50,808 bases of DNA from Chrysochromulina tobinii. Taxonomy: Eukaryota. The stretch lies in assembly GCA_001275005.1 (NCBI GenBank), contig JWZX01003134.1, forward strand, positions 1-50,808, given 5' to 3'. A program made the translations under genes and the position numbers. Shown in pieces: positions 9,419 to 45,200 of the stretch (position 1 is the stretch's first letter; each line of letters begins with the position of its first letter). A model generated the notes under the pieces. It made no database searches. It was not told the DNA's origin and saw only the letters and a list, made by a program, of their open reading frames with translations.

Positions 9419-10874
9419 TCAGTCGCTCGTCAGGAACTCGAGCATGGAGTCGAGGTCGTCGCCAAACTGGGCGTGGGCTTGGACGGCGCGTGGTAGGCTG
9501 AAGCCCATCGCGAGGAGGGTCTGCACCTCTTGGCTCAACGAGAGCTCGTCGGCGCTTCCCGTACTCCCCGCGCCGCCACAACCGCCGCCGCCGCCGCCGC
9601 CCCCAACCCCGCCGCCGCCGCCGCCACCGCTGCCGCCGTCGCCGCCGCCCACCTGTACAAACGGTGCGCCGGCGGCCGCGGCGGCCGCCGTCGCGGGCGC
9701 GCTCCGGGTGGGCGCCATGGCGGGCGCCCAGGGGCTGTAGACTGGTAGTGCGGGCGGCTTGGCGAAGTCATGCACGTCGAAGGGGCTGGGCGCGCTCGCT
9801 ACAGTGCTCACGGCATCAGCGTCCGACCCCGTATGCCCGCACGAGGCGGAGGGCTCGCTGGCGCCGCCGAAGGAGACACCGCTCGCGTCCCCGCTCGCGT
9901 CTCCGCCCCATGCGGCCTCTCCGGCCCATGAGCCGATACCTGTGGGGAGAGAGGGGAACAGGCGCCGTCGTGAGCACTTGCATGCAGGCCCAACAGCTTC
10001 TGGCCACTCCGGCCCATGCGACGATACCTGCGCCTGGCCAGCTGGCTGCAACTGCTCCACCAGCCCACCCGACGCCAGCCTCGGCGGCGCTCGCGGCGAG
10101 GGCGGCCTGGAGCAGCGCGTCCTGCGTCGCGTCCACGTCCGACGCGTCCCGCGCGGAGAGCAGAAGCTGTGACTCGATCGCGGACGTTTCGGACGCTTGC
10201 TGAGCTTGCTCCACCTGCATGCGATCCGCGAGCCCCGGGTGGAAGCCCGGGAGGCCGAGGCCGTCGCCCACGTCGGCTACGGTCGGGTCGACGATCACGT
10301 TGTAGTGCGACCGGCCGTGGTAGCTCAGCCGCAGCGGCGCGCCCGCCTCGCCCTCGGACGGCGCTGTGAACGTATTCATGGGCGCCTCCGTGTCGCCGCG
10401 CACGTCAAAGACGTGCACGGGCCGGTTGTAAATCTCCGAGATCGCCTGGATCTCGAGGTGGTTGCCGAACACGCGGTCGCGCCGCTTGCGCCGCAGGTAC
10501 GCGTCAAAGTCCTCGGTCACGTACTGCGAAAAGTGGTCACGCTCCTTCTCCATGTGATCGAGGCACAGCCGGCGCACGACGTCGTGCATCTCGGCGTCGC
10601 CGTACACGCGGTCCGAGACGGAGCGGAAGAGGCAGTTGCCATCATCGAGCATCCGGCGGATGTGCAGGCCGCGCGCGCGCAGACGCTCCTCGAAGCGCCG
10701 CTCCAGCTCCACGTACTCCGCCGCGGAGATGGGCTGCTGGTCGAGCTCATCGTCCGAGTTGACCGGCTCATAATTGTCTGCGCTTGGGCGCGGCGGTGCG
10801 CGCGCGGCGGAGGGCCGGGGCTCGTAGCTGATGTTCTGCGGCGTGTACTCGTCCAACGGGTCGATGCGCGTCAT
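9419..10874 (-). CDS. OTU-domain deubiquitinase (OTUD5-like) with UIM-like and C-terminal UBA domains (exons 10874-10028, 9939-9419)
   Basis: DDGNCLFRSVS catalytic Cys box, GNHLEIQA, LSYHGRSHYN His box; LLQAALAAS; LLAMGFS...AVQA UBA; an 88-nt phase-1 intron joins the two ORFs; start may lie further upstream. Confidence 0.9.
9940..10027 (-). other. Spliceosomal intron with a 26-nt duplication of the downstream exon and the TGCATGCAAGTGCTCAC acceptor module
   Basis: CAG|GTATCGTCGCATGGGCCGGAGTGGCC...CCCCACAG|GTATCGGCTCATGGGCCGGAGAGGCC. Confidence 0.85.
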
Positions 10875-11246
10875 GAGGGCGGCTGAAGCGCGCACACACG
10901 GTTCCGACCCTATTCCTGCCAGAGCGAGCGCTTCGCAAAATGCAACGCCGAGACGACGCCTGCTCGAACGAAGCCGCATGCAAGGGGGGAGGGGGGAAGG
11001 GGGGGTGCGGGATTGGTAGCCGGGCTGCCCAGGAGCGTGTTGAAGTCATTCTGATGCACACGCTTCCCGGCCGCGGCCCTTCCCTGCGTTCCTCGGTCTT
11101 GAAGTCCTTCATTGCAGCCTTATTGCGGTCGTGGACGTGTATGGTCGCACACGGTCCATCTCCATGAAGAAAGGGGAAGTCTCAGCCCGCGGTCCCGTTG
11201 CGTTCGCATGTAGATCTCTCGAACGCGTCTCGTATGCATCTACCGC

Positions 11247-12420
11247 TCACAGCCGTGGTTTCATCAGGCGCCACTTCAGGCGGAGGGCGAGGCGCGGCGT
11301 GTCCCTGATGCGACAAGACATTCGCTGCGCTGCGAACTGCATCGTGCATGCGCGTGCTTTATCAAGGGCCCTGGCAGTTGCACGGGGTTTTCGCCCCGGC
11401 GTCTGCAGCGCCTTCATCACGCGGTTGTAGTGCACGTCCATGTTGTGCCCGCATGCTCGCGCGCGGCTTCCTCCACGCGCTGTCGGTGTCGGCGAGCGCG
11501 GCGTCGTCCACGGCCACGCTGAGGTTCTTGGCCATCAAGAGCTGGAGCCCGAGCGTATAGGCCTGCCCGCCGTCGAGCTGCGACGGGTAGGTCCTGTGCA
11601 TGTCGAGATCACAGGTGATGCAGTGAGTGCGTGCGCGATCAAGGGAGGCACTCAGGTGGCAAGCAGGGCAGCGCACAGGGTGGGGGCGATCGTGACGAGG
11701 GCGCCCGCGCCGACGAGGTGGGCGGCGAGCGCCTCGACTCCGGGACGGAGAGCGCCGACGGCGCCGCCTACATAGTAGCGGTCGCCGGCGTCCTCATCGA
11801 GTAGCAGACGCAGGGGGACGACCAGATCCGCAACCATGTGGTTGGCTGCGGCCTGCTGCTTGGACAGAGGGCGCTCCTCCTTCCAGTCAAGGACGCGTGC
11901 ACGTAGCCGGGGGTTTTTTCGGCTTGTTCATTGAGTGTCTGCTCTTTGGGACGGTCCGCGTCTCTTGCCCGCCACGTCCCCGAGGGCGCTCCTCCTTCCA
12001 GTCAAGGACGCGTGCACGTAGCCGTTGCTGCTTGAGTGCCTCCGTATCGGGGCGGAAGTGGCCAGCTGTAGAATCGCGGAGGCGGACCTCGCCGCGAGCC
12101 CGCGCCGACGAGGTGGGCGGCGAGCGCCTCGACTCCGGGACGGAGAGCGCCGTTCACCGCCGTCCAAAGACCGCTCGGCACGAGCACGACCTCGTCGTCA
12201 TCCGGCTTGAGACCCTCGCGCAGCGCGTGCTCGTAGTGAGCGTGCGCCGTCAGGATCTGGTTCGCCTCGGCCTCGGGCGGCGGGCGGGCAGTCTGCCTGC
12301 CGTCCACGCCGTACGACCTGTCGAAGCGCGAGGATCGATCCGGGCCTGTCGCAAACCTGTCGCACACCCAAGCCACAAGTGGCCTCCACCAGCACGAGGT
12401 AAGCAGCCACGGCCACATGG
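11247..12420 (-). pseudogene. Fragmented, internally duplicated coding-like sequence of unknown origin
   Basis: Protein-like fragments in shifting frames; exact duplications 11703-11757=12098-12152 and 11867-11909=11982-12024. Confidence 0.4.
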
Positions 12421-16612: not shown

Positions 16613-18236
16613 TCGAGCGCACCCGGGACTCCGAAGTCCGGGACGTCATGCTCGCCGTGCTCCTCGCGAAAGCGGAAGAGGTCATTCGCAAGCAAGATCC
16701 GAAGCTCGTTCTTGCCCAGGTCTTCGTCCTCAAACGCGAAGGCGCTCTTGACGCGCGCGGCCTCCTCCTCGGAGGCCATCGCCGTCACGCACGGCGCCTC
16801 GACCGCCGGCAGCGCGCCAAAGTAGGCAAAGCCGAGCGCCGCCGCGGCGCTCGGCCGTTTGGCGGGATCAATCTCGAGTAACGCCTTGAGGAGAGCGATC
16901 TCGTCCGGCGAGGCGCTGGGGCATGCGTCGCGCAGCTTGGCATCGACCTCCAGGCTGCGCTCCTCGTCGCCGAGGCTCGAGAGCGCCTCCTTGGCGCACA
17001 CATTCCGCACCTCCTCCACCGCCTCTGCGGAGTATCCTGCGAGCTCCGCGGAGGTCGGATCTCCCAGGATGCGCGCGATGACTGCGAGCTGATCGTATCG
17101 CTGGCGCTCGCGCTGCTCGTCGTCGAAAGAGAAGGGGATGCAGTAACGGCCAGGGAAGAGGGCGCCCGTACCTGACGTCGACACGCGAGCAAGTTTGCCT
17201 GATGAGAGAGGCACTCAGATGCCATCGGAGGCCATCAGAGGTCATCAGAGGTCATCAGAGGTCATCAGAGGTCATCAGAGGTCATCAGAGGTCATCAGAG
17301 GTCATCAGAGGTCATCAGAGGCACCCAGAGGCACTCAGATGCCATTAGTGGAGATCAGAGACCCAATCCGGGATGCCGGGGCGACCGGGGTAAGATTCGC
17401 GTACGCAGGTGCGACTGAGGAGTGAGCTCGAGCAGCTCCTTGAAGATGCACCCGACGGCCCACATGTCAATCGCTGCGCCGTACTTTTGACGTAGGATCA
17501 CCTCGGGCGCGCGGTACCATCGCGTGACGACGTAGAAGGTCATCTGAGCCCTGAGCGGCGGTGGCTTCGCCTTGAGCGGCGGTGGTTCGGCCGCCGCATC
17601 GCCACCGCCGCTCACCCCCTCGGCGGCATCCTCCATCGCGTTGTCCACCTGCGTGGAGGTCTCCTCGAGGCGCTTGGCGTACCGCGGGTTCGAGTCGACG
17701 CGCGCCAGCCCGAAGTCGCACAGACGCACGACGCCAAAGGGTGTGGCGGGCGTCACCTTGCCCGTCGAGACCAGGATGTTGGCCGGCTTCAGGTCGCGGT
17801 GGATGCCCGATATGGCGTGGACGTGCGTGAGGCCCGCGCACAGCTGCGCCATGAACGAGCGCACCTTGTTCACCTCGAGCGACTGCTTGGACTTGATGAT
17901 CCTGCGCATGTCGGACTCCATAAACTCGGTGATCATGAAGATGTCGTCGAAGGTCTCTATGTTGGCGGGCATGGCCAGCCCTCGCAGAGAGATCACATTT
18001 GGATGATGAAAGTCGCGCAGAAGCCGGATCTCGCGCAGCACCTTCTTGGCTTCCTGAGCGTCGTAGAAGACCTCCGAGATGCGCTTGATGGCGACCGTCT
18101 CGCCAGTCGCCGTCTCGACCGCACGCGCCACGACCGAGTACGCGCCACTGCCGATGAGCTTGACATTCGTGTAGTCCTTTTGCACCGCCCGATCCGCGCC
18201 TGACCAGAAGGCCTTCAGCTCTGCCTCCGAAGCCAT
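16603..18236 (-). CDS. Mitogen-activated protein kinase (exons 18236-17405, 17171-16603)
   Basis: IGSGAYSVV, VAIKRI, LREIRLL, HRDLKPANIL, CDFGLAR, TFYVVTRWYRAPE, LFPG, DQL; a 233-nt phase-1 intron joins the frames. Confidence 0.92.
17172..17404 (-). other. Intron containing a 10-bp (CTCTGATGAC)n array
   Basis: C|GTACGC...GTCAG|GTACGG; 8 exact GTCATCAGAG units on the plus strand (17241-17320) plus degenerate flanking units. Confidence 0.85.
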
Positions 18237-24185: not shown

Positions 24186-24813
24186 CTATTTCGCCTTGGC
24201 CTTGGCTAGCCTCGCTGCTCGTGCCTTGCGCGCCGCGGCGTCTGCTGCTGCTTGCTCAGCCTCCTCGGCCTTCTTGCGTCGCACTTCCGCAGCGGAGAAG
24301 AATGGCTGCAGGAGCTGGAGTACAAAAGCTTGGAGCGCGAGCACGATCTTCCAATTGTTGGCGAGGTAGACGACGAGCTACGCAGCAGGACAGTGCGGGA
24401 GGAGAGTTAAACGCGTGTCAGCGGCGGCCGTAGCGAACGGGCTCGCGTCGCTGACGGTGGCAAAGGAGCAGAGAGCGCGCGCAAGTGATCAGGGCGGCGG
24501 AGAGGCTCTTACGAGCGAGCCGAGAGTGAGCTGCAATCCACCACTCGGAGGCGTCAAAGGTGCCTGCCCCTGGCCGGCGAACGCGGCCGGGTTCATGCCT
24601 GGCTGCTGCCTCGCTTTGGTTGAGAATGGTGCGGGCGCCTCGCCGTTGGGAGTCCATTTGGCATCGAGCGCGGTAGTCAGCGCAAACGTCTGCGGGCAAG
24701 CGCGTACGCTTGGGCGGTGAGCACATCACGAGCGTGCAAATTGGCCACGGGCGAGGCGGATGGATGAGCGGCGACTAACACACCAGAGCTAGGATCCACG
24801 AGCGCCACCACAT
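24186..24813 (-). CDS. Small (~73 aa) membrane protein absent from the ORF track (exons 24813-24784, 24377-24186)
   Basis: Spliced product MWWRSWILAL|LVVYLANNWKIVLALQAFVLQLLQPFFSAAEVRRKKAEEAEQAAADAAARKARAARLAKAKAK*; GTGTGT donor and pyrimidine-rich TAG acceptor, phase 0. Confidence 0.5.
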
Positions 24814-25158: not shown

Positions 25159-25599
25159 ATGGGTACAGGCAGCGCGCCGGCTCCCTTTCCCGTGATCAAC
25201 CGCAAGCCGACTTTGGGCGCGACACTGCGCAACTTCACGTTTGGCGACTTGTGCAGCATGTTCGGATGCACCGTTGCGGGCGGCGTGTGGGGCTTTGCGG
25301 CGGGTGCGCACGCTGATTCTCTACGCTCAGCGCACCCTGCACGACCTGGCTTGTAGCTTTCGCGCTGAACTTGCCTGCATCGCTCTTTCCGCCGTCTAGT
25401 CGCTCACTCCCTGCCGCCCGATCGTTTGCGTGCCGCAGGCAAGCCCCTTCGGCGGCATGGCAGCATCAATCTCGCTATGACTGCGTGCTCTGTCGCCTTT
25501 GCCTACTCCTTCCAGGCCTCGTGGCACCGGCTCACCGGCCAGCGGCCGAACGAGTCCGAGTGCTACTACGCCGGCGTCCCCTTCGAGAAAGTGAACTAG
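25159..25599 (+). CDS. Mitochondrial complex I accessory subunit, NUXM/20.9-kDa (NDUFB1-related) type (exons 25159-25303, 25439-25599)
   Basis: FPVINRKPTLGATLRNFTFGD...GFAAG|KP...FAYSFQASWHRLTGQRPNESE; 135-nt GT-AG intron. Confidence 0.75.
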
Positions 25600-25935: not shown

Positions 25936-27837
25936 ATGAGCGCCGTCGACCCATACACCATCTTCGACAGCGTGGTGCCGCCAACAAGCGAGCCGGTCGC
26001 GGGCAACGACCCTTTCGACTGCTTTGGCGCGCCGGCGGAGCATCAACCGGCCAAGCGGCCATGCAGCTCGCCATCGCCAGTGCTCCCGTTGATTCGCCGC
26101 TTTGTGGCTGCACACGTTGGCGATGCGATCGCAGACTTGAGAGCGGCGAGCTCGTCTGCCGCTGCTACGCTCGCGTCCCATCTGAGTGATGCAGCGGACC
26201 ACTTGGCAGCCGTACCGGCCCAATTTTCCGGCTGCCGGTCCGCTGCGGAGAGCGTGGCTGACGCGGCGTGGTCCACGCTCACACAAGATGGCGCGTGGCC
26301 TCACGCTTCGTGGCGAGAGGCGTACGTGCTCGCGCAGCTCGCACTGGCCGCCGTGTGCTCGGCATGTGACAATGACACGGATGCCGCCCTGCGCTGCCTC
26401 GATAGGGCCTTCATCCTCGGTGGGCCCACGCAAGTGTTCCGCGACTGCGTCGAGATCCTTGACGAGCCAAAGCCGCAGAGAGCACGGCGATCAACGGGTC
26501 CACTGCCGACGGCCGACATCAACGAGGACGCGCCTGCTGCAGAGCCGTGGAGGAGGCGTCTGGAGGAGGTGCGACGTGCCCGTGACGGCGCGCCGTCTCG
26601 GGCGAGGCTTGCTGTTCGAGCCGTTGAGCGACAACCCTGCCCTCCGACGGCGCAAGCGTTCCGCGCGGCGCGGCGTGGCGGCGCTCCGCTTCTCTTCGAG
26701 GGCGTCGCCGACGGCTGGCCCGCACTTGAACAGTGGCAGGACTTTGGCTGGCTGCGCGACCAATACGGCGCGCGGCTCGTACCGGTAGAGCTGGGGAGCC
26801 TCGCGAACGCGGCGGGCGCCGTCGTGGGCGCGACCGCCGTGGGCGCGGTGGGCGCCGTCGTGGGCGCGACGGGCGCCGCCGCGGGCGCGACGGACGCCGC
26901 CGTGGCCACCGCCGCTGCGACGGATGGCGCCTCGATGGGCGGTGCGACGAGTGGCGGTGCGACACAGCCTGGCGCCCACCATGGCGCGTGGAGGGAGAAG
27001 TTGATGCCGCTGGCCGACTTTGTAGACACGTTCTTGATGGCTTCGGAGCCCGGCACGGAAGGCCACGCCGCGGCCGGTAAGGCGACAGCTGAGGCGGCCG
27101 GTGAAGCCGCCGAGGACGCGCAGGCGCGACACCCTCACGCCGTGTCGAGCGCCCGCGCCGTCGTGGGCTACCTCGCACAACACAATCTCTTTGAGCAGAT
27201 CCCGCGGCTGCGTCGCGACTTTGCGATCCCGGCGCTGCTCGCGGGCGGCGTGCAGCACATGCACGCGTGGCTTGGCCCTGAGGGCACAGTGACGCCTCTT
27301 CACTTCGACTCGTACGACAACGTGCTCGTGCAGGTCGTCGGCCACAAGCTCGTGTATCTCGAACGGGCCTCGAACCTAATCTGGACACCTCGCCTTGCAT
27401 GCAAGTGCTCACCACAGCGCCCTGCAAAAGCCACGTGCCTCGAACCAAATCTGGACACCTCGCCGTGCATGCGAGTGCTCATCACGGCGCCCGCTCCTCT
27501 TCCCCACAGGTCCCTCTTCGACTCGGGTCAGACGCCGCGCCTCTATCCCAAAGAGGGCGGCGGCACCGGCGTCGATGCCCAAGGCAACGTGAGTCCTCTG
27601 ATTACCTCTGATTACCTCTGATTACATCTGAGTACCTCTGATTACCTCATGCTCATCTTTGGTCAGGTGAGTGCGGTCGACGTCGAGGCGCCCGATATGG
27701 GTCGCTTCCCCGAGTTCGCGCACGCCGTCGGGTACGAATGCGTCCTCGGTCCGGGGGAGGGCCTCTACATCCCGGCGGGCTGCTGGCATCACGTGCGAAG
27801 CCTCAGCCCGTCGTGGTCCATCTCCTTTTGGTTCTGA
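25936..27837 (+). CDS. JmjC-domain hydroxylase, JMJD5/KDM8-like (exons 25936-27353, 27510-27588, 27667-27837)
   Basis: [74 protein letters not shown]. Confidence 0.92.
27354..27509 (+). other. Stop-free 156-nt intron with two tandem ~70-nt units carrying the TGCATGCAAGTGCTCAC module
   Basis: GT|GTATCTC...CCCCACAG|GTCCCTC; removal restores HKLVSLF; units start at 27367 and 27437. Confidence 0.8.
27589..27666 (+). other. 78-nt intron with a (CTCTGATTAC)n array
   Basis: AAC|GTGAGTcc...GTCAG|GTGAGTgc; ~5 ten-mer units; removal restores GNVSAVDVE. Confidence 0.9.
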
Positions 27838-28501: not shown

Positions 28502-29833
28502 ATGATCTTCGCGACCGAGCTGCGCACGATATTTCTGCTCAGTCTCTTGACAGCTCGTGCCGCATCCATGGCGGCTGTCACGACTCCTAAGGCCGACCTT
28601 CGGTACGTCAGCCTAGCGGCGTCAGACGCTGCCAACCAGGTCGCCAATCCTGTCGCGTACCCGCGCGATCTCTACCCGGAGATAGAGCCGTTTGAGACCG
28701 GCTACCTGGATGTCGGCAATCACAAGCTGTACTACGACCTGAGCGGCAACCCGAACGGTGTGCCGTGCATATTTTTGCACGGCGGCCCTGGTGCAGGGTG
28801 CTCGCCTCGCTCCCGTCGCTTCTTTGACCCAGCATACTACAAGATTGTCATCCTCGACCAGCGAGGCTCTGGCAAGTCCATTCCGAATGCCGCGGACGAC
28901 CTTGATGGCTCGCTCGTCGAGAACACGACGCCCGCGCTGGTCCATGATATCGACCTTCTTCGAGCCAAGCTGGGCATTGAGCGCTGGGGCGTCGTGCTCG
29001 GCGGTTCGTGGGGTTCGACGCTCGCCCTGGCCTACGCTCAAGCGCACCCGGACCGGTGCTCCAACCTCCTGCTACGCGGAGTCTTCCTCTTCGGCCCCGA
29101 CGAAGTCGAATACTTGTTCTGCAACGGCGGCACCTTTGGGCAGAACCCGGGCGCTTGGTCCAAGTACGTGCAGTACCTCGAAGACACGAGCTCAAACTGG
29201 GCGGTCGAAAAGACCAACCTCCTCGGCGCATACTGGACGCGGCTCACGAGCAGTGACGCTGCGGTGCGCTCGGCGGCGGCGGCGGCCTTCGTCGGGTACG
29301 AGCTCTCGATAAGCAAGACATACACGGACCCCGCCGTGCTGGAGGTACGCTGAGGCCGTCGTGGGCACATGCTCGTTGTCACAGAGGAGCCGGCACCCCC
29401 ACGGTCCCCCGCGGCACCCCCGCGGCACCCCGCGCCTCCTTCTGGTGCGCCCTGCCTACGGCTGACTTTCTGTGCCTTGCCTGGCGAGCACCCTCAGACG
29501 TACCTTGGCACACCGACGATCCTCATCCCGTTCGCGGTCATGGAGGTTCACTACATGCTCCACGCGGGCTTTATGCGCCGTGGCCAACTCTTGGACAATG
29601 TCAAGGTGATGGCAGAGCACGGGCACAAGGTGGCCATCGCGCACGGGCGTGCCGATTATGTATGCCAGCCCCAGGCAGCCTATCGGCTCGCCCAGGCTCT
29701 CGGCGCGGTCGGAGCCCAATGCGAGCTCGAGATCGTCGCAGGCGCTGGGCACAGCGACTCGGAGCCTGGGTTGATCGACGCGATGGTTCGTGCGACGGAC
29801 AAGTTTCGTGATGTTGCGGCCGTGATCGCTTGA
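28502..29833 (+). CDS. pip: Proline iminopeptidase, peptidase S33 (exons 28502-29344, 29498-29833)
   Basis: LYPEIEP, FLHGGPG, DQRGSGKS, GGSWGSTLALAYAQAHP, HGRAD, AGHS; 153-nt phase-0 intron. Confidence 0.93.
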
Positions 29834-33735: not shown

Positions 33736-36700
33736 TTATCGGCTGGCTGTGAAACGCCATGGGGGCCCGGCCTCGGGGATCGAGGCTGGATGACGCCATG
33801 GGGGCCCGGCCTCGGGGATGGAGGCTGGATGACGCCATGGGGGCCCGGCCTCGGGGATGGAGGCTGGCTGACGCCATGGGGGCCTGGCCTCGGGGATCGA
33901 GGCTGGTTGACGCCATGGGGGCCCGGCCTCGGGGATCGAGGCTGGCTGACGCCATGGGGGCCTGGCCTCGGGGATGGAGGCTGGATGACGCCATGGGGGC
34001 CCGGCCTCGGGGATCGAGGCTGGCTGACGCCATGGGGGCCCGGCCTCGGGGATCGAGGCTGGCTGACGCCATGGGGGCCCGGCCTCGGGGATCGAGGCTG
34101 TAATGTGGAAGTCTGCGGTTGATCTCCATGTAGGCTCCTCAAAATCAGTGTTCCCGTTCTCAACCACCGCCTTCTCAGCCGCCGCCTTCTCGGTCACCTG
34201 CACGGCCGCCAACTTCTCGGCCGCATCCTTCTTGGCCGCCGCAGCTTTCTCCGTCGCCGCCTTCGCCTTGGCCGCCTGCGCCTCGGCTGCCGCCTTTGCC
34301 TCAACCGCCGCCTTCTCGGCCACAACTTGCCATGCCTTCGCCGCCTTCACGGCTGCAGCCGCCTTGCTCGCTAGGCGTGTGCGCTGCTGCTCTTGTTCAC
34401 GCGTCTGGGCGCGCTTGGCAGGTGGCGCAGCGACGGGCGCCGAAGCGTCAGGCGCCGTCACGGGCGCTCTTTGTTCAGCGACGGGCGCTGCGGCGACGGG
34501 CGCTGCGGTGACTGGCGCTGCGGCGACGGGCGCTGCGGCTACGGGCGCTGGGGCGACGGGCGATGGGGCGACGGGCGCTGGGGCGACCTCCGCGGCCTCC
34601 TTGTCTGCCTTCTCCTTGGCTTCTGCGGCCTCCTTCTCGGCCTTCTTCGCCGCCTCGGCTGCCTCCTTCTCCGCCTTCTTCGCGGCCTTAGTGTCGATCG
34701 CGGCAGCCGTGGGTGGCTGCAGCTGCTGATCTCGATTCGGCTGGTGTGGCTCGTTCACAGCGCGCTCGACCAGTGCATCGTTAGCGGGCGCTGCCGCGAC
34801 GGGCGCTGCCGCAACGGGCGCTGCCGCGACGGGCGCTGCCGCGACGGGCGGCATCCTCGTAGACGTTGCACCGTCATCCGCAGCCCTTTGATCGAGTTCG
34901 CCATTCGCGAGACGCTTGAAGATGGTGTTGGGCTCGGAGCAACTCGCGCTTCGGGGCATGCGAAGGTTGGCCGCCTGCCCCGAGGCAGGATGGTTGTGGA
35001 GGTCGGTCGAGTTCCATGCAAACTCCGGCTGCGTGTGAGATGGTTCGTCGTCTTCGCACCGGCACGTCATTGCCGACACGTCCCTCGCCGCCGCCCTGAC
35101 GAGTCGCTTCTGGTCAGACTGACGGAGGACCGTCGCGCTCCGTGCAAGCTCCGTCTTGTTCGTCACGATCAGCTCATCGTCCCCCGGGTTCGTCAGAATG
35201 GGCCCATCGCCATCGCACGGACAGGTCGGTGATGTCGGTGAGAGGCCGGAGCTCGCCAGCATGATTGTCGTACCCGCACCCCCCATCGGCTCGATTCTCA
35301 GGCCAACGGGCCTCAGAGCGTCGCCGAGGCACTTGTCGGCAGCGCTGGCACCTGCCCAGCAGCTCTCGATGGCCAGCTGTCCGTCTGTGTAAGTATTAGA
35401 GACGGTCGCGAACGAGGTGGGGGGGCGCGGGAGGCTGCAGTCAAACTCGGTGCCGGCAGGACTGTACTGACGGAACGAGGCGAATTGCCTGTCCGCCTCG
35501 TTTCGCAAGAGTGACATCATGGCGACCTTGGGGTTCTTTGCGATGGACCGAAGTGCATCCTCCCATGCCACCATCGTCGCCTCATTACGTGCGAGCATGC
35601 ACTTTGTCGGCGGCCTTTCCTTCACGAGCTGCCCGGCCGTATTGGCGTTGACAAACTGCGGGAAGAAGTTGAGCGTGATCGTGCAGTTCGCGGGGGGGCA
35701 GACGTCCTTGGGCACTCCTTCACACACAAGATCGCGCACGCGGACGAAGTAGTCGGCGAAGTCGTACTTGAGACCCAAGTACAGCGAGGATGCATCGCCA
35801 GTGAGGTTCGTAGGTCGCATGCCCGGCTTCTTCGAGCTACTGAGCGCCAAGATCTTCTGGTTGAGTACTGGGTTGCTCCTCCTCCGAAGCGTACCGGTGC
35901 CGGAGTCGAAGATCGCATCCGCAAAGGACGACATGTTGCACCCGGTGACGTGTTCGGTCGTCGACCACACCATGCTCGTGTACGAGAAGGGCTCGCCGAG
36001 GTCGAACACGCACGGGTGGGTATTGAGCGCATGCCCAAACTCCGTCGCGCCACTTTCGTGGTCAGAGATGATGACGAGCACCTGTGCGAAAGACGAGCCA
36101 GCCTTCTCGGCCGCCGCCTCCTCGGCCGCCTCCTTCGCCGCCTCCTCCTTGGCCGCCGCCTTCTCCTTGGCCGCCTTCTCCGCCGCCTCCTTCTCCGCCG
36201 CCTCCTTCTCCGCCGCCTCCTTCTCCGCCGCCGCCTTCTCCGCCGCCGCCTTCTCCGCCGCCGCCTTCTCCGCCGCCGCCTTCTCCGCCGCCTCCTTCTC
36301 CGCCGCCGCCTCTGCCTCAGCATAGGCCTTCGCAGCCGCAGCCTCCGCCGCGGCCGCCGCCTCCTCGGCAGCCGCCTCCGCCTCAGACGCGGCCTCCTCG
36401 GCCGCCGCCTCCTTGGCCGCAGCCTTCTCAGCCTCGATTGCCAGCTCACACGCCATGTGGCACTCGGTTAGCATGAAGTCTGGGTTGGCCTCACACTCCC
36501 CCGCCGCAGCCCATTGGGGGCAGTCAGCGGGCTCGGGCGCGAGAATCGCGGCGAGCGTCGCCTTCTCCGCCGCCGCATTCTCTTCGTATGCCTGCTGGGC
36601 CGCGGCGTTTTGCGCGGCCACTCTCGTGGCTACGTCCGAACGCTCGCACGTGACCTTACACTGTGTCCTCGCGCACCACTGGGAGAGGCACTCCAGCGCG

Positions 36701-38130
36701 CATTCGCCCTGCAATGCTCGATGGGCGCAGTTCGGCGGCTCGTCAGCGGGGACGAGGAACTCGGTGAGAGCGGCCCTCTGGGCGATCCCGATTTCGAAGG
36801 CCGCCTTCTCGGCCGCCGCCCTCTCGGCGTACTCCTTCTGGGCCGCGGCGTTCATCTCGGCATCTGCCTTCTCGAGCGCCGTCTTTCTCGCGGCCGCCGC
36901 TTGCTCCGCCTCTGCCTTTCTAGCTGCCGCCGCTCGCTCCGCCTCTGCTTTCCTTGCCATTGCGGCTTGTTCGGCCGCTTCCTTTCTAACGGCCGCCGCC
37001 TTCTGATAGGCCGCCTCCTTGGCAGCCGCCTTCTCGGCCGCCGCCTTCTCCGCCAGCGCCTTCTGGAATTCCGCCTCGACGGCCGCCGCCATGCCGGCCG
37101 CTGCCTCCTCCGCTGCTGCCTTCTCCATCGCTGCCTTCTCCGCCGCCGCAGCCGCATTCTCCTCCGCCGCCGCCTCGATCGCCGCCTGCTCCGCCAACGC
37201 CCTCTGGAACGCCGCCTCGACGGCCGCTGCCTGCTCGGCCGCTGCCTTCTCCGCTGCTGCCTTCTCTGCCGTCGCCTTTTCCGCTGCCGCCTTCTCGGCC
37301 GCCGCCTTCTCGGCCAGCGCCTTCTGGAACTCCGCCTCGACGGCCGCTGCCTGCTCGGCCGCCGCCTTCTCGGCCGCACTCGCCGTCGCCGCCTTCTCGG
37401 CAACCGCCATCTGGAACGTCACCGCCGCCTTTTCTCTTGCCGCCTTCTCGGCCGCCGCCTTCTCGGCCACCGCCTTCTCTGCCGCTGCCTTCTCGGCCAC
37501 CGTCTTCTCGGCCGTCGCCTTCTCGGCCACCGCCTGCTCGGCCGCCGCCTTCTCGGCGACCGCCTTCTCTTTATTCGCTGCCTCCCTCTCGGCTGCATGA
37601 TCCTTGATCCATGACTTCCAGCAAGCAGCCTGGCACTCCTTGCGCATCAGGGCCGACTTGGCGGCCGAATTTGTGCTCGAGGCGATGCACTCGCCCGCAT
37701 CTGCCCGCGCGTCGCACCCTTCAGGGTCTGCTAACTCCCAACTGGCAGACTCCGGGGGATCCACGGGCCTTTTGATCTCGGTCCTTGACTCGGTCATGGC
37801 CGGCGCGGTCGGCTGGGTCGTGGTCGGCGTAGCAACCGTGGCCGGTGTATTGAGGTACCACGGTGTTCTGCCATCTTTTCTGCGGACTGCCGTCCCCGAG
37901 GCTGGTATGGTCAGCGAGGCTGGCTGGGCCTTCTCTGCCGCCGCCTTCTCCGCCGCTCGCTCCGCCGCCGCTCGCTCCGCTTCCGCCTTCTCCGCCGCCG
38001 CTCGCTCCGCCGTGACATGAGGCGTGGCGATCTCTGTGAGCGCTTGAAATGCAGCATTTGGGGGAAGCGCATGCGCGACGAGGGCGAGCGCTAGACATAT
38101 GGCAAGACGGCAGAGGTAGCCGTGGCCCAT
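33736..38130 (-). CDS. Giant secreted protein: EKAAA helical repeats, three ShK-like domains, sulfotransferase-like domain, C-terminal 13-aa repeats
   Basis: Signal peptide; [25 protein letters not shown] and two related motifs; [29 protein letters not shown]; (EKAAA)n; (APVAA)n. Confidence 0.8.
33754..34100. repeat. 39-bp minisatellite, 9 copies
   Basis: ACGCCATGGGGGCCYGGCCTCGGGGATSGAGGCTGGHTG. Confidence 0.95.
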
Positions 38131-38372: not shown

Positions 38373-39872
38373 ATGCGATTCTTCTCACTGTGCATCATCG
38401 CAGCGGCGCGTACCGCTCTTGTGAGCGCGGTTGCGCCGCGTAAGCGCATGTTGATGATGGTGGGCGGAGATCTCGACGATTACAACCGCGAGATCTTCGA
38501 GTTGATCATCTCGAACGCCGGTGGATCCAACAGCACTCTCTGCGTCATTGCAACCAATGGCGAAGATCCATGCTGCGACCCCGACAGCAGTTGGGTGTTC
38601 TACCAGCAGTTGTTCACCGGTTACGGTGCGACCGACGTCAAGTACATCAACATCGATGTGAACAACAGCTTTCCAAGGTCCCACACGGGGAACGCGTATG
38701 ACCCTGCGATCATCGAGCAGATCAAATCGTGCGACGGGTTTTGGTTTGGCGGCGGCGACCAGACGCGCATCATGAAAGCCTGGTACGACAACAACGTGAC
38801 GGGCAAGCTGAACACGCGAACGCCGACACCGGCGATGACGGCACTGCTTGAGCGCTTCGAGGAGCATGGCGGCGTGCTGGCGGGCTCGTCCGCCGGCACT
38901 GACTGCCACAATGCGAAGGTCATGGTCACCGACGGTGACTCCTACTCCGGACTCGTGAAGGATACTGTCGCATACAACTACAGTGAAGGTGCGGTCGACC
39001 TGGACGACGGTACAGTGACCTTCGACCCGAATGGAGCGCTTGGCACGTTCTCGTATGGGCTCCTTGACACCCACTTTGGCGAGCGCGGTCGTCAGGGCCG
39101 GATGATTCGGCTTCTGATGGACACGCTGCACCTGCCGAATGGGTATCCGATTGGGTTTGGCGTCGACCAGAACACAGTGATCATCGTGGACAAGGATGAC
39201 CCTTCGCACGCCATTGTCCGAGGCCAGGCCGGCGTCACCATCTGTAACGCGTCGACCCTGATTGCACCTGATTGCACCTGATTGCACCTGATTGCACTTG
39301 ATTGCACCTGATTGCACCTGATTGCATGAGCAGGTAACGTGGAGGACGCGTCGACGACGCAGTGGGCGGGCGCTTGGTCCGTGACCAACGTGCGCTGCAA
39401 CTACGCCACGCCGGGCGATACCGTGCACATGACCACAGGCACCATCTCCTTCGGTGCGGACAAGACGGCTCTCAAAGGACGGGAGACTGCCGAGCAGCCC
39501 TACACTTCACGCGACGTCTTCAACTCGCCGAAGAACCCCTCGACCACGGGCAGCACGCACGAGTTCGTGCTTCAGGCCACGTCGCTGTTCAACTCGACAG
39601 CCACGACATCGACCGGACTGACCTTTGAGACGGAGCCCAAGACGTTCGCCGTGCGCATGACGAAGGATGACAGGTCCGTGGCCTATCAGGGAATGCACAA
39701 CTTCAATGGCACTCTACAAAGCTACACCTCCTACATGGACTTGGTGGTAGACATCTTCGCCCTCGACACCAAAGAGGCACTCAGCATGGCGTTCATGGGT
39801 GGAGTAACGGCTGAGCGCGCGCAGATCAAAGGGACGATAGCCGCCGCCCGTGCGCCACGCGAAGATAAGTAA
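38373..39872 (+). CDS. Secreted cyanophycinase-like serine peptidase, S51 (exons 38373-39243, 39334-39872)
   Basis: Signal peptide; LMMVGG, GFWFGGGDQTR, AGSSAG nucleophile, LDTHFGERGRQGR, GFGVDQNT. Confidence 0.88.
39244..39333 (+). other. 90-nt intron with a (CTGATTGCAC)n array
   Basis: T|GTAACGCGTCGAC...GCAG|GTAACGTGGAGGACGCGTCGAC; 7 ten-mer units. Confidence 0.9.
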
Positions 39873-40146: not shown

Positions 40147-40245
40147 GTTCAAGTTCAAGTTACTACATAAACAACAGACAACCTAAAGGAAGTTGAACTT
40201 GAACTTGAACTTCAGAGCTTCAAGTTGAACTTGAGAACTTCAACT
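40147..40245. repeat. (AACTTG)n hexamer tract forming a 15-bp inverted repeat
   Basis: GTTCAAGTTCAAGTT (40147-40161) and AACTTGAACTTGAAC (40196-40210). Confidence 0.8.
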
Positions 40246-40294
40246 ACCGGTAACTTGAAACATGCATGGGTGTGAAAGGCGAAACAACAACCAT

Positions 40295-41819
40295 ATGGCG
40301 GGGGCTCTCGACGCCTTCACCGTCGAGGCCGGTGCGCTCCAGATCTGCCTCGACCCGGGCAAGTTCGTCCAACGCAAGCGCCCGCCGACTACGAATTTGC
40401 CGGAGAGAGAAACGTGCCCGGCGATCCTCTCGCGATACTCATGGATCGGCACTGCAGCGGAGCGCCGCGTGGAATGCTGTGTCGGCCGGCGGGCGGCTGC
40501 CTTGGAGGCGCAGCGCTTCGTGCCGTGCGACGGGCACCGGGCACCGAGCTTGGCGACGGTTCTCTCGGCGCTGCGTGGGCGCACCATCGCGTTTGTGGGC
40601 GACTCGACGATGCAACAGCTGTGGACGGGCCTCTTGGCCGAGCTCTACCGTGCCCCGCTAACGCTTGAGATCACGCAGCGCGTGCTCGAGTACGACATGC
40701 GGCCGCAGAACCACAACCGAGACGCGATGTGCACGGTGTCGCACACCAACCCACCGCGCCAAGGCGGCAGCCAGATCAACTTCCGGCTCGACGCGCGCGC
40801 GGCGCCGCTCACGTGCAACCTCACGCAGTACCGTGGCGGGCCGGCGCAGAGCTCGTGGCCACTCCTGGCCGAGTGCCGCGCGCTGCCCGACCTGGAGATG
40901 ATGGTGCCCGAGGCAGACGTTCTCTTCCTCTTCTACCGCGTCGACGCCAACATCTCCAAGAGCGTACGTCCGGCGTTTCGGCAGAGTCAGCACTGCCGCA
41001 CACCGGAGATGCTCTTCGAGCGCCGTATCGACGCGGCGCTCGAGGCCGCCGACGCTGCCGTGGCCAACATTGGCGTGTGGTACGGGCGCGGCGCCGAATG
41101 GGCGAGCACGACACCCGACCGAACCGCCGAACGCTACCGCGCCGACGTGCGTCATCTACTCGGCCGTCTCAACGGCCTTGCTCCGCAGGGTAAGCTAGGG
41201 CTCTACAGGGAGTCGACGCCGCAACACTTTGAGACTTCGACCGGCTCGGGGCTCTTCGAGGAGCGCCAAAAGAGCACGGGCGCCCAGTTTGGTGGACGCC
41301 GGCTCGGCGGCGGCGCCCACGGCGCCAAAGGCTGCCTGCAGGAATGCCCGCCACTTGGCCCCCAGTACCGCGACCGTCCCGATTGGCGCAACGAGGTGAT
41401 GATGACCGAGGCGGCGGCGCTGCGATTCCCCGCAGACGCGATCGTGCCCGTGGGGGCGCTCCCTGCGCCCGATGGCCAACGCGCACAAGGACACGAAGTG
41501 GGCCTGCGAGCTCGACTGCACGCACTACTGCTACCATCCACTTCTGTGGAGCGGTCTGCTCGACGGGCTGTACAGGCGCTGGTACCGCTGGGCGCTGACG
41601 GCCGGCCGCTCGCTGCCGCTCGCGCCGCGCCGGTGGGATTTGCTGGGGGCTGATTTGCCGAGCGAGGTGGGTAAACGAATCCTTCGCTCGCGCACCCTCG
41701 CGGGCAAGGTGGGCAATGGCAAGGTGGGCAATGGCAAGGCGTCCATGCTACAAGCAAAGCTCTTGAGGCGCGAAGAGAAGCTTAAGCTGGCAAGCCGCAG
41801 CCGAGCAGCTGACCCGTGA
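40295..41819 (+). CDS. TBL/PC-esterase-like (SGNH) polysaccharide O-acetyltransferase with a 1-nt frameshift near 41450
   Basis: LRGRTIAFVGDS, YRESTPQHF and DWRN in one frame; catalytic DCTHYC in ORF 41472-41819. Confidence 0.75.
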
Positions 41820-42278
41820 CCACCTCATTCACGTTCACAGCTGACCCGTGACCGCGCGGCGCGTGCCGACGATCGCGTATCTCGGTACACACATCACCGA
41901 ACGGTGCGTGGTGTTCTTGGGGGGCTCCGCGCGATTGGCCCTCCCAAGCGGCCCAACGCGAGATCTCGCACCGCGAGATCTCGTAAGTGGACCAAGCGGC
42001 CGCGCTAAGCATGGATGTCGACCACTACGTTGGCTCCGACGAGCGCGCGCTCTCACAGGGAAGCTTTTGCATGCTGTGATGAGCGGAGCTGCGAGCAGGG
42101 GACCCCGCCCTGCTGCGGCGACGTGCCAATCAAATATGTTCGTCACGCGTCACGGTACCGGGGTCGGCCCAGTGTGTGTTTCTTCGCACTGTTAACTTAA
42201 CAAGAAAGCCCAATACAATTCGAGACGGGTTGAGAAAACCTTCTTTGGACCCGTCCAGCGAGGTCTGTCGTGTCGTTT

Positions 42279-45200
42279 TCAGGCCCTGCCAGTGCCGCGC
42301 GCGGTCACCACGCCTCGCGGCACCGGAGCACCACCCAACGGTCGGCCCTGGTGCTCTGTGGAAGGGCGGGCGGTTAGGGCTCCCCGGCGGTTCTCGCCGG
42401 CGGCCGGTGAGGGGGCACCACGGGTGAGGGGTCGACCCGAGCCTGCCTTTGGCGTCTTCGGCGTCTTCGGCTTTGCGGCTGGTGGCGGCGGCATCGCCGG
42501 CAGTGTGAGCGGCGGCGCCGCCGCGGCAGGTGCAGGTGCTTGGGTTTTGATCTCTGCATCGATGTCGACGCTCGTCCGTCGCTGCTTCTCAGTGCGCTGC
42601 TGCTCCTTACGCTGCTGCTCCCTCAACTTCTCTCGAGGCGAGATGTACCGTTCGGGCGGCGGCAGGCCCAACTCCTTGGCACGATCCTTGAGGACCTTGA
42701 ACTCGCGAACCTTGACACTCTCACGTGCCGACACGTGGTTGACGAACTCCTCCTCATAGGCCGCATTCTCGGCCGCGAACGCCTCACCGGCCGCTGCCTT
42801 GAGCCCCGCTGGCAGCGGGCCAGCCGCCTTTGCGAGAGAGCGCAGCCAGGCCATCTGCAGCGTACCGACCTCGACCTCACGTGTGGCCAAAAGGAGTTCT
42901 ATCGCCTCGTGTGGCCGTCCAACGACCGCGTGGGCCGCGGCGATCGCATCTCTCTCGAGGAGCTCTGGAGTGAGCGCTTCCTCCGGGCGGTACATGGTCG
43001 ACGGACTGGGCGAGCGATCGCGCACCGGGCTGTCCCGGGCGCCTCTCGGGGGCGTGCTGTCCCGGGCGCCTCTCGGGAGTGGCTCGTCGTGCGCCCACCG
43101 GCCCAAGCGAACGCTGTCACGGGGGTCGTGCGGATTCTTGGGTAGCACTCCCTGCTTTCGCATGGGCGCGTCCAGAGACAGGCGCAGGTTGTGCACCTGG
43201 ACGGACGAGTGGATCGCATCCAATAAGAATGGTCATCAGTGGTCATCAGTGGTCATCAGTGGTCATAAGCAGTCATCAGAAGTCATCAGCAGTCATCAGC
43301 ACTCATCAGCACTCATCAGCAGCCATCAGTGCACCTGGCTCTTCTCGACCGCCTCCATCAACTGCGGTGCCAAAATAAAGGCCAACTCGGTCGCAGGAGC
43401 TCCCCCATTTTCTCTTTCGAGCGTCTGTGCGATGGCATCGAGCGCTTCTTCGGTGGCGTGGCACAGATACGCGGAGTACGCCGCTCGGGCTTCGGAATAA
43501 GGCACGGTGCCACGGACATCCTCCTCGTCGTCCTTCTTCCCCTTCCCCTTCTTGCCGCCTTTGGGTCTTCCCCGTAGGCCTTTGGGGCTGCCCTTTGGGT
43601 CTTCGAAGACCTTTGGATCTTCGTCTCGGCTGGGTCTTCGTAGGCCCTTGGGGCTGCTGTCGGGACTGGCGGCCGCGTGAGTCCATGAGTGATTCGAATC
43701 GTCTTCGGAGCCCATCAGAGCTCGAAGTCCTTTGGGCAGCTCCTTGAAGGGCACTTCCTCGTCGACCCAGAAGGCATCCCCGAGGGTGAAACGCGTCGCC
43801 TCGGCCGCCTCCGCCTCCGCCTCCGCCGCCGCCGCCTTCGACGCCATTCGCGCCGGTCTGAGTGTCACCGAGACTTCAGTCGACATTGGAACTAGGGACG
43901 GCGGGGAGGGCCTTCCTAGTATGGGAACCGCCCCGGTGCCTATATTAGGCAAGAACGTTTCGGACGAATCGCCGACCACGCTGACCTTTTCGCCCTCCTT
44001 GTCCTCGATGGGCGTCGCTGTGGGAACCTCAAACGGCAGCAGCACTTGTCGCGTCTTGGCAAGGGCCCTCGCCCGCGTGCTGAGCTTGTCGCGCGTCGTC
44101 TCGGCGACGCGCTCGAGGACCGCCGGAAGCATGCAAGCAGACGCGCTGTGTGTGAGCGAGGCGATCGCGTTCTTTGCGAGCAACTCGACGCGCTCGCACC
44201 GGCGACGCACGCGCTGCAGCCCTACCTGATGAGGGAGGCAATCAAGAGGTCATCATCAGTGGTCATCAATGGTCATCAATGGTCATCAATGACTGCAGCC
44301 CTACCTCCGCCTCCGACAGCTGCTTGCTCGTCTCCTCGACCTTGAGATCGTATGCGACGCGCGCCTCGTAGTTGCTGTCGCGCGCGAGCGCGGCCTCGTC
44401 GTAGACGGCGTTGAGCCGGCGGGTAGACTCGTCCTTGCGAGCGTGCTTCTGGGCCTCGACCTCCTCCATCGTCGCGCGCGCCTCCATCTGCTCCTCCCAG
44501 TACTCGAGGATCCCCTTGACGTGATCGCACATGGTCAGCTCCTCGAGCTCGCCCCACGCCGCTCGCAGGTTTTTATGGCGGCGCCCCTCCCTCGTCGCGA
44601 CCGCAGTCATCTGTGCGACCACGCCGCTCGTCGCGGCGCGCTTCTCGGCTGCTTTGCGCTGCTCCCAAAACCTGTCAGCCCCACGCTTGGCGGACTCCTG
44701 CTGCGCCTCCGCCAACTCCCTCTGCTGACGCTTCTGCTCGCCTGCCGCCTGGTCCCTCAAGAAACGTAACCGCTCCCTCGAGACCCCGCCGCCGAGCGAG
44801 CTGTTGCTCGCGCCACTCTCTCCGGCGGCAGCCTGGAGATCGTGCATCACCTTCTTACGGCGCGCCTCCCTCTTCTCCTCCGCCGCCACCTGCTCCTCCT
44901 GCAGGCGCTCCAGCGAGCGCTCCGAATGCTCCTGCATCGCCACAGCGACGTCCATGCCTTCCTCCAACACATCCAGCCGGACGGTGAGCTCGATGAGCGC
45001 AGATCGCAGATAGGCGAGCTTCTGGTTGAGGTGCGGGCGGCGTGTCTCGAGCCGCTCGGCCATCATCTCGTACACGAGCGCGTCCGTCTCCGCCTGTGCG
45101 GCCTTATGCGCAGCCTCTTTCCACTCAGACTCCAGCTCGGCAGCTACCCTTGCCAGCTTGCCGCCGTCAGCGTCCTCACGCGCGCGTGCGTCCGTCTTCG

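What the first reader, a model, noticed from the sequence alone, without database searches (positions are those of the whole stretch)
9914..44304. Candidate intron-generating system: introns begin with a variable-length copy of their own downstream exon
Seen: intron start vs next-exon start is GTATCGTCGCATGGGCCGGAGTGGCC vs GTATCGGCTCATGGGCCGGAGAGGCC (OTU, 9940-10027), an exact GTAGGGCTGCAG (44226-44304), GTAACG plus CGTCGAC (39244-39333), GTGAGT (27589-27666), GTGCAC (43197-43334) and GTACG (17172-17404). GTATCTC vs GTCCCTC (27354-27509) is a decayed case. The repeat-free introns at 25304-25438 and 24378-24783 show no such copy. Known: introner transposons of Micromonas and Aureococcus co-opt one splice site from a short fixed-length TSD and carry terminal inverted repeats. 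Inference: here an insert supplies only the branch point and AG, while an exonic GT duplicated at the target becomes the donor, so splicing restores the mRNA exactly. Variable duplication length and no visible TIRs suggest staggered-break repair or target-primed synthesis rather than cut-and-paste transposition.
Basis: partly seen in the sequence, partly recalled or inferred. Interest (0 to 1): 0.92.

Follow-up and report, generated by a model that had tools for sequence, protein, structure and literature searches.

The report
Self-copying splice sites make algal introns
In the alga Chrysochromulina tobinii, over a hundred sampled introns (likely thousands genome-wide) begin with a copy of the exon that follows them and end in one of two shared splice-acceptor sequences, which were likely pasted in from neighbouring introns by DNA-repair or replication errors rather than by a transposase, a likely overlooked way of making introns in bulk.

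Summary
Confirmed and extended. The window is Chrysochromulina tobinii. All seven cited intron-start/exon-start copies are present; RNA contigs skip three of these introns exactly. In 134 further loci, 113 of 235 module-ended introns start with a copy of the next exon against 23 of 1,696 swapped controls; copies span 10-70 nt, median 26. Only the intron 3' part is shared (two acceptor modules, often behind 10-mer arrays); there are no terminal inverted repeats; in 62 of 113 the upstream exon does not end in AG, so the insert brings the acceptor and the duplicated exonic GT/GC is the donor. A sister lineage carries the module, antisense and in frame, between two copies of nine codons that the window holds once. 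New: neighbouring introns share modules, one whole intron recurs 2.9 kb away, and such pairs share exon-start microhomology. Best reading: microhomology-guided templated insertion from other introns; retroelement-primed insertion is the main rival. Published introner surveys list no family for this genome; their filters would drop these.

The parts
9940..10027 (-). Intron in OTU deubiquitinase gene: 26-nt copy of exon 9914-9939 at 10002-10027, about 15-nt filler, acceptor module B at 9940-9986
   Evidence: spliced frame open; OTU domain; junction not seen in RNA rows shown
17172..17404 (-). Intron in MAP-kinase-like gene: decayed about 35-nt copy of exon 17135-17171, 10-mer array 17215-17321, module A ending at 17199, then a 27-nt GC-starting extension to the AG at 17172
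   Evidence: RNA piece ends at 17166
27037..27063 (+). Empty site in JmjC/KDM8 exon 1: nine codons present once here, twice around an antisense module A in a sister lineage
   Evidence: protein-level
27354..27509 (+). JmjC intron 1: two tandem 70-nt units ending in module B; start copy decayed; one unit only in some strains; position also interrupted in the sister lineage
27589..27666 (+). JmjC intron 2: 6-nt copy, 10-mer array 27595-27648
39244..39333 (+). Intron in cyanophycinase-like gene: 6-nt copy plus a second exon block after a 9-nt microhomology gap, 10-mer array 39257-39326
   Evidence: RNA skip in 3 of 4 runs; homologues continuous here
43197..43334 (-). Intron 2 of a coiled-coil gene of unknown family: 6-nt copy, 10-mer array 43232-43329
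   Evidence: RNA skip in 2 of 4 runs
44226..44304 (-). Intron 1 of the same gene: exact 12-nt copy of 44214-44225, 10-mer array 44253-44291, canonical module A end at 44226-44243
   Evidence: RNA skip in 1 of 4 runs
24378..24512 (-).
   Evidence: RNA joint in 2 of 2 RNA runs, 0 of 2 DNA runs
24690..24783 (-). Ordinary control intron, no copy (inferred from frame and RNA contig ends at 24690)
25304..25438 (+). Ordinary control intron, no copy
   Evidence: RNA joint
29345..29497 (+). Ordinary control intron in proline iminopeptidase, no copy
   Evidence: RNA joint
6198..6368 (-). Ordinary control intron, only GT shared with next exon
   Evidence: frame only

Best explanation
These introns consist of a 5-70-nt duplication of exon sequence beginning GT or GC, followed by a shared branch-point-plus-AG module, and they likely arise when a repairing or replicating DNA end jumps by microhomology to the 3' end of an existing intron (likely often one in the same gene), copies it through the AG, and jumps back to a point upstream of where it left. 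Shown: the anatomy, exact splicing in three cases, sense-strand exonic placement, local sharing of modules, one filled/empty pair. Inferred: that the duplicated GT/GC serves as donor because templates themselves are followed by GT/GC exon starts, so the return microhomology tends to be a donor-like site and the family perpetuates itself; that host repair or replication enzymes, not a transposase, do the copying; that selection removes most inserts that are not spliced and those shorter than about 50-60 nt; and that arrays then expand by slippage and neighbours are homogenised by conversion. Whether the template is DNA or unspliced pre-mRNA cannot be told from sequence.
For: A module-blind search found 56 of 83 AG|GT direct repeats with a module between, against 1-6 for five other GT contexts. 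62 of 113 upstream exons do not end in AG. Local templates: modules under 1.5 kb apart are more alike than those of other loci in 25 of 36 loci (family A, p 0.001), with no excess beyond 5 kb; family B, which the scan did not select, is clumped (variance 0.37, mean 0.17 in 259 windows); shared ends of 40 nt or more in 3 of 191 near pairs against 15 of 20,500 far pairs, and near pairs with 30 nt or more also share 4.4 exon-start bases against 2.1-2.5 (n 7, p 0.002). In L037 two whole introns 2.9 kb apart are about 96% alike, including a 5' part that copies the exon of the downstream site only, with a 9-nt microhomology across the donor; in L123 two introns 200 nt apart share 43 terminal bases and both sites start with the same 6 bases. 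Internal microhomology deletions in the intron copy (9 of 113) and exon pieces interleaved with arrays (L002). Modest microhomology at the copy/module joint (2.7 against 1.7 nt in 52 adjacent cases of 79, p 0.04). The MAPK intron runs 27 nt past the module AG, which a template ending at AG could not supply. Several non-GT cases duplicate the exon start right behind an older acceptor.
Against: Neighbour likeness can also come from conversion after independent insertion, so it does not prove de novo local origin; family B neighbour likeness was not significant per locus (5 of 8 loci, p 0.23). Upstream-exon likeness to the module stops at positions -1 to -3, as donor selection alone predicts (family A p 0.38 for -4 to -10). 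27 of 79 have 4 nt or more of filler with no general match in the flanks (28 fillers, p 0.25 direct, 0.09 inverted). No class of inserts overshooting the AG was found. In the unspliced antisense insert the module still abuts the duplication at its terminal AG (codon resolution, n 1), which suits a template with a defined end. A fragment of a multicopy family whose longest relative shows motifs I recall from non-LTR reverse transcriptases lies at 32674-33090, so target-priming machinery may exist. No de novo event and no sense-strand empty site at DNA level was seen (10 of 10 sites shared between overlapping assemblies).
Confidence: 0.5

Rival explanations
1. Target-primed reverse transcription: a non-LTR or Penelope-like enzyme nicks before GT, primes on intron or pre-mRNA 3' ends (often the nascent transcript of the same gene), copies a variable length, and a staggered second nick gives the long variable duplication.
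For: Fixed 3' end at AG with variable 5' extent and variable duplication; sense, exonic placement; precise AG end in the antisense insert; a haptophyte precedent, Pavlovales family 1, classed non-LTR with best hit to a Chlamys element, co-opts the 5' and carries the 3' site (7 copies); a possible non-LTR remnant in the window (label recalled, no Pfam or PDB support).
Against: No poly-A or simple tail; no reverse transcriptase, endonuclease or transposase family in 150 long locus ORFs of 172 chosen (Pfam also misses the remnant's relatives); the remnant carries no module and its relatives hit only one other locus; strong locality and exon-start microhomology are not expected for an element acting in trans; no hammerhead or other Rfam family at its gathering score in 7 loci.
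Confidence: 0.3
2. A non-autonomous DNA transposon without terminal inverted repeats (Helitron- or Replitron-like) that makes variable target duplications, with later decay of its 5' end.
For: Replitron-1 and some Helitrons of Chlamydomonas make variable-length duplications and carry fuzzy ends, and one Replitron protein is reported in C. tobinii (PMC10288648, passages).
Against: No shared 5' end, no terminal direct or inverted repeats, no stable hairpin (z from -0.56 to 0.54 in 6 introns), almost no intergenic or antisense copies, local copying.
Confidence: 0.1
3. Plain tandem duplication of an AG|GT exon stretch made the intron first; the module came later by gene conversion from other introns.
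For: 51 of 113 upstream exons end in AG; tandem copy-plus-module units are common; conversion-like pairs exist.
Against: 62 of 113 have no upstream AG to duplicate (4 of 7 in the window); module-free AG|GT duplications that look like introns were not evident among the 27 module-free hits, mostly arrays read backwards and coding repeats; the antisense insert has module and duplication without ever being an intron.
Confidence: 0.07
4. Old introns whose 5' ends were later overwritten by copies of the next exon.
For: Copies have diverged (median identity about 90-95%; 42 of 88 differences synonymous against 25% expected if only the intron copy changed); the 27354 position is shared with a sister lineage.
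Against: 83% of exons after a module begin GT or GC against 2 of 5 for ordinary window introns; homologues at 32-52% identity, some on contigs of 7-39 kb, run unbroken through both JmjC sites, and paralogues L058-L060 run through the L069 site.
Confidence: 0.03

Closest known systems
[quoted passage not shown] 2B of Gozashti et al. 2022, bioRxiv 10.1101/2022.06.06.494994 and PMC9860276; passages and supplement rows read)
   Same: Donor taken from duplicated target, acceptor brought by the insert, mRNA restored, many copies in genes
   Different: Their duplication is 4 bp and fixed and they have terminal inverted repeats; here 5-70 nt, no inverted repeats, only the 3' part is shared, and copies resemble their neighbours
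Marine Chrysochromulina sp. introners (Fig. 2C, same paper; 16 assembly rows seen)
   Same: Same genus label, genic, no terminal inverted repeats
   Different: 4-bp duplication, carry the 5' site and co-opt the 3' site, the reverse of this case; two core motifs of the present modules are not in the stored supplement text (file cut when stored)
Haptophyte families in Gozashti et al. 2025 (PMC12130899; parts 1-2 of 7, passages and supplement rows read): Pavlovales fam1 (non-LTR, Chlamys best hit) and Emiliania fam24 ('10bp terminal direct repeats')
   Same: Co-opt 5', carry 3'; haptophytes
   Different: 5-7 copies, similarity to both intron ends, duplication 2 bp or not called; C. tobinii is listed with 0 families
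[quoted passage not shown]
   Same: Direct repeats at the splice sites, no transposase
   Different: There the captured DNA is unrelated from case to case and repeats are short and not always above background; here one of two modules recurs at hundreds of sampled sites
Tandem genomic duplication of AGGT, intron transposition and intron transfer (PMC3443670, passages)
   Same: Duplicated exon gives the donor; introns copied within a gene
   Different: More than half lack a duplicable AG; reverse splicing gives no duplication; transfer moves an intron to the same position of a paralogue, not to a new position
Replitrons (PMC10288648, passages) and Chlamys/Naiad Penelope-like elements (PMC8557442, passages)
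   Same: Variable duplications (Replitron-1); 5' truncation and partial tandems (Penelope-like)
   Different: No terminal direct repeats, hairpin, pseudo-LTR or coding partner linked to the modules

Membership tests
Introner (survey definition, Gozashti 2022/2025) | Many introns in unrelated genes share sequence | tested here: met
   357 distinct module ends in 134 loci plus the window; host ORFs of many Pfam families
Introner (survey definition, Gozashti 2022/2025) | Similarity reaches both the 5' and the 3' intron boundary | tested here: not met
   5' parts are site-specific exon copies; only 3' parts are shared; exception L037 pair
Introner (survey definition, Gozashti 2022/2025) | Similarity not driven by simple repeats | tested here: inconclusive
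   Module B and the last 19 nt of module A are not simple repeats, but family A is mostly 10-mer arrays
Introner (survey definition, Gozashti 2022/2025) | Spliced out exactly | tested here: met
   RNA contigs, 3 of 3 introns in the stretch laid; frame kept in 22 of 23
Introner (survey definition, Gozashti 2022/2025) | Presence/absence between relatives | tested here: inconclusive
   One antisense filled/empty pair at protein level (16 of 16 sister proteins shown filled, 14 of 14 covering C. tobinii-type proteins empty); 10 of 10 sense sites shared among near-identical assemblies
MITE / cut-and-paste DNA transposon | Terminal inverted repeats | tested here: not met
   None at the ends of the 7 window introns, seed 6, length 8 or more
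MITE / cut-and-paste DNA transposon | Short fixed-length target duplication | tested here: not met
   10-70 nt, broad spread; 5-26 nt in the window
Non-LTR retroelement / SINE (target-primed) | Fixed 3' end, variable 5' truncation, variable duplication | tested here: met
   (insert median 52 nt, range under 15 to over 120)
Non-LTR retroelement / SINE (target-primed) | Autonomous partner sharing the 3' end | tested here: inconclusive
   None in about 1% of the genome sampled; whole genome not held
Non-LTR retroelement / SINE (target-primed) | Poly-A or simple 3' tail, structured RNA head | tested here: not met
   Ends are CAG/TAG directly on exon; no fold above shuffles; no Rfam family at threshold
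Tandem genomic duplication of AGGT | Both splice sites come from the duplicated segment | tested here: not met
   62 of 113 upstream exons lack AG; a module lies between the copies
Reverse-splicing intron transposition | Seamless insertion without duplication, sense only | tested here: not met
   Duplications; one antisense insert
Microhomology-mediated templated insertion | Microhomology at joints and nearby templates | tested here: inconclusive
   Nearby templates and exon-start microhomology supported; copy/module joint weak, p 0.04; none beyond -3 at the donor
Microhomology-mediated templated insertion | Dependence on a host repair polymerase | not testable with these tools
   Needs genetics or mutation-accumulation lines

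The most novel reading that the evidence does not exclude
A splice acceptor has become a selfish sequence with no transposase of its own: host repair or replication copies the 3' end of one intron into a nearby exon, duplicates the target so that its GT becomes the donor, and every product is a new template followed by GT. This chain reaction built thousands of introns, perhaps a fifth to a half of all introns of freshwater Chrysochromulina, and is invisible to introner searches, so it may be at work in other genomes scored as introner-free.
Probability: 0.38. Interest if true: 0.92.

Novelty: new variant of a known kind. Interest (0 to 1): 0.8.

Why it matters
Where new introns come from is a long-standing question, and the current view is that only transposons explain bursts of gain (PMC12130899). 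Here a cultured, sequenced alga that two surveys scored as having no introners holds a large intron class whose members carry their own birth record: the duplicated exon dates each event and in some cases names the source intron. That makes rate, locality and enzyme of intron gain directly testable from existing genomes and from mutation-accumulation lines, and it defines a simple screen (intron start against next-exon start) for other genomes. It also explains a source of repeat-like junk in gene models of this genus (read-through proteins).

Tried and rejected
Whole-genome test: no genome held, so statistics rest on 134 loci (750,818 bases with overlaps) picked by one family A 18-mer; this favours family A and intron-rich genes; 40 of 397 ends were dropped as duplicates or too near a contig end, 26 as internal array units, 57 as non-GT/GC and 39 for module sequence in the next 70 nt before the 235 were scored; 34 of 113 were dropped as tandem or gap-started before the joint tests. 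Module patterns in viral contigs: 0 and 1 hit; prokaryote genomes: 0; sister-lineage protein in viral contigs: no locus, so the filled site was not seen as DNA. Relative DNA run X20 covered the stretch only in short low-depth pieces and bridged no repeat intron. Extended left-joint microhomology: rejected. Flank-templated fillers: not supported overall. Overshoot past AG as a class: not found (one search had a self-matching error and is discarded). Antisense open frames through modules: uninformative in GC-rich DNA (32 of 106). Hammerhead or other RNA family: none at threshold. Telomerase-type addition: rejected because array units differ between and within introns. Spliceosome-made intron circles (PMC10996645, abstract and outline only) would give AG|GT joints but not the antisense insert. 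Search for intronless paralogues printed only in part; one useful case was seen. Depth at 17227 in one DNA run was about 128,700 against about 40 elsewhere, but the tool warns that this is no copy number. The protein atlas did not answer. Literature: ten searches found no description of these introns; the C. tobin genome paper mentions introns once (PMC4580454, passages). Subscription papers, files 13-14 of PMC12130899, the cut part of the PMC9860276 supplement and the surveys' online sequence files were not seen. PMC11282704 and PMC8469720 were read as passages. Earlier scan notes held nothing on this.

Full report
Organism and data. A protein cluster of the window's proline iminopeptidase holds a Chrysochromulina tobinii record whose contig has the window's length, 50,808, and a C. 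parva record. No whole genome was held. I therefore scanned the metagenome collection for an 18-mer from the end of intron 44226-44304 and obtained 134 loci, 750,818 bases with overlaps, from this organism and near-identical strains.

The observation. All seven intron-start/exon-start pairs are present. Against swapped exons, five are above chance by strict scoring, the MAPK intron by loose scoring as a decayed 35-37-nt copy, and 27354-27509 not in the window, though close strains carry an exon allele that matches the intron start better (4 of 7 read-through proteins). RNA contigs skip 39244-39333 in 3 of 4 runs, 43197-43334 in 2 of 4 and 44226-44304 in 1 of 4, with GT..AG ends. One RNA piece fits the MAPK junction; rows for 9940, 27354 and 27589 were hidden by the table limit, but the spliced frames are open and the Cupin_8 model continues across the two JmjC introns. 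Five repeat-free introns share 0-2 bases with the next exon.

What it is. The loci hold 397 module ends: family A, ending in a 19-nt branch-point/pyrimidine/AG motif, usually behind arrays of 10-mers that each contain a CTGAT-type branch motif (330), and family B, a 45-nt acceptor (67). After removing duplicates and internal units 331 remain; 226 are followed by GT and 48 by GC. Of 235 GT/GC cases with a module-free next exon, 113 have an anchored copy of the exon start upstream (score 10 or more) against 23 of 1,696 controls matched for the first bases; copy length is 10-70 nt, median 26, intron median 81 nt, with one below 50. This is a lower bound: copies of 5-9 nt, as in four window introns, fall under the threshold, and 12 of 113 low scorers show internal copies against 5 of 226 controls. 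A search blind to modules found 56 of 83 AG|GT direct repeats to enclose a module, against 1-6 for five other GT contexts, and no third family was evident in the printed rows. Both the assemblies resembling the window's culture (79 of 177) and the other assemblies (34 of 58) show it. Removal keeps the frame in 22 of 23 testable cases; phases are 48, 22 and 17. Sequence after modules scores like true sense coding DNA (121 sense, 11 antisense, 50 non-coding, 37 unclear of 219; calibration 89, 9, 29, 25 of 152; random places 345, 315, 514, 174 of 1,348), and every clear module in the window lies in a sense intron. There are no terminal inverted repeats, no unusual fold and no Rfam family.

Number and age. 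The window has 7 such introns in 50.8 kb; loci of 10 kb or more give 65 family B and at most 144 family A per Mb (biased upward by clumping). With a 59-Mb genome, 16,777 genes and about one intron per gene (PMC4580454) this extrapolates to thousands, a sizeable share of all introns (inference). Copies range from perfect (20 of 113 at 17 nt or more) to about 80% identity; 42 of 88 differences are synonymous against 25% expected if only the intron copy changed, which fits drift of both copies over time rather than error-prone copying alone. Near-identical assemblies share 10 of 10 sites and differ in array length.

Gain, not ancestry. Cyanophycinase homologues at 39-64% identity, one on a 34-kb and one on a 2.6-Mb contig, are continuous across 39244. 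JmjC homologues at 32-52%, some on contigs of 7-39 kb, are continuous across both JmjC sites; transcript-derived records cannot be excluded for the short contigs. A sister lineage (78-81% identity; 16 of 16 proteins shown) has nine residues of JmjC exon 1 twice, around 14 residues that begin like the window's module A translated backwards, where the window and 14 of 14 covering C. tobinii-type proteins have them once (27037-27063). This is a filled/empty pair with a single copy at the empty site, seen at protein level only, with polarity unknown. It is antisense and in frame, so insertion does not need splicing, and the sense bias is at least partly selection. The same lineage is also interrupted at the 27354 position, so that intron predates the split.

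How it most likely works. Modules are shared locally. Family A ends under 1.5 kb apart are more alike than those of other loci in 25 of 36 loci (p 0.001); family B 5 of 8 (p 0.23); family B is strongly clumped; the excess is gone beyond 5 kb. Near pairs with 30 or more shared terminal bases also share 4.4 exon-start bases, far pairs with equally long shared ends 2.1 (n 7 and 210). In L037 a whole intron recurs 2.9 kb upstream at about 96% identity, including a 5' part that copies the exon of the downstream site, and the upstream site matches the source across the donor over 9 bases and has only a 6-base duplication of its own. In L123 two introns 200 nt apart share 43 terminal bases and the same six first exon bases. 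I read this as template switching: a DNA end at the end of the future duplication jumps to a module, copies through AG into the first bases of the source's exon, and returns to a matching GT/GC site upstream. As sources are followed by GT/GC, products are too, and each is a new source. Shown steps are the anatomy, splicing, locality and microhomology in a few pairs; inferred steps are the jumps, the enzyme and the role of selection. Against it: conversion between existing neighbours gives similar pairs; microhomology at the copy/module joint is weak (p 0.04) and absent beyond -3 at the donor; fillers mostly have no local source; and the precise AG end of the unspliced antisense insert suits a template with a defined end. 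Target-primed reverse transcription therefore stays a serious rival (0.3): a Pavlovales family classed non-LTR co-opts the donor and carries the acceptor, and the window has a fragment at 32674-33090 of a multicopy family whose longest relative shows motifs that I recall from non-LTR reverse transcriptases, unconfirmed by Pfam or PDB and not linked to a module. No mobile-element domain was found in 150 long locus ORFs.

Comparison with what is known. Co-opting the donor from a duplication while carrying the acceptor is known from Symbiodinium introners, with 4-bp duplications and inverted repeats; marine Chrysochromulina introners have 4-bp duplications and the opposite polarity. The 2025 survey lists C. 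tobinii with 0 families; both surveys require similarity at both intron ends and remove families driven by simple repeats, which would discard these introns. Break-repair gain with short direct repeats, AGGT tandem duplication, reverse splicing and intron transfer each match one feature and fail another. It works like an introner; it fails the survey definition on the 5' boundary and fails MITE membership on both defining features. Ten literature searches found no description, within the limits of the held library.

Verdict. Real, genome-scale, apparently undescribed: a new variant of intron-generating sequence, with a fair chance (0.38) of being a transposase-free, self-propagating mechanism. 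Interest 0.8.

Noticed in passing
window 32674-33250 (+): Frameshifted fragment of a multicopy protein family (41 hits; another piece in L021); the longest relative P0253 shows motifs I recall from non-LTR reverse transcriptases with a restriction-like endonuclease; no Pfam or PDB support.
   Followed up: partly
window 11400-12160: Decayed gene-like region on the minus strand with a degenerate module A near 11636-11660 and an acceptor at 11594; short stretches recur at 11860-12025 and 11700-12150.
   Followed up: no
window 27354-27509 and proteins P0181-P0183, P0186, P0187, P0190, P0192: The 70-nt unit is double in the window and single in some strains, and the first exon codon is polymorphic.
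   Followed up: partly
L019 10018-10282, L012, L015, L060, L086: Tandem runs of copy-plus-module units (up to 7), giving stacked acceptors with only the last followed by true exon.
   Followed up: partly
L131, L066, L047, L034, L073: Duplications that start right behind an older acceptor and lack GT, extending an existing intron with a new 3' end.
   Followed up: partly
L001 (minus, 5054) and L090 (minus, 318): Intron copy begins GT while the exon copy begins GC, as if the donor had been improved after insertion.
   Followed up: no
L135 850-1060: One contig of the viral collection carries module B with an upstream array; may be host DNA in that collection.
   Followed up: no
window 33754-34100 and 34100-38130 (-): 39-bp array of 8.9 copies at the end of a long low-complexity, alanine/glutamate/lysine-rich ORF.
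   Followed up: no
window 41341 and 41461: RNA contigs lack 2 and 1 bases here, suggesting small assembly errors or allelic indels in the gene at 40276-41820.
   Followed up: no
window 38451-39872 (+): Cyanophycinase-like gene in a haptophyte; named homologues include bacterial-type and mollusc records.
   Followed up: no
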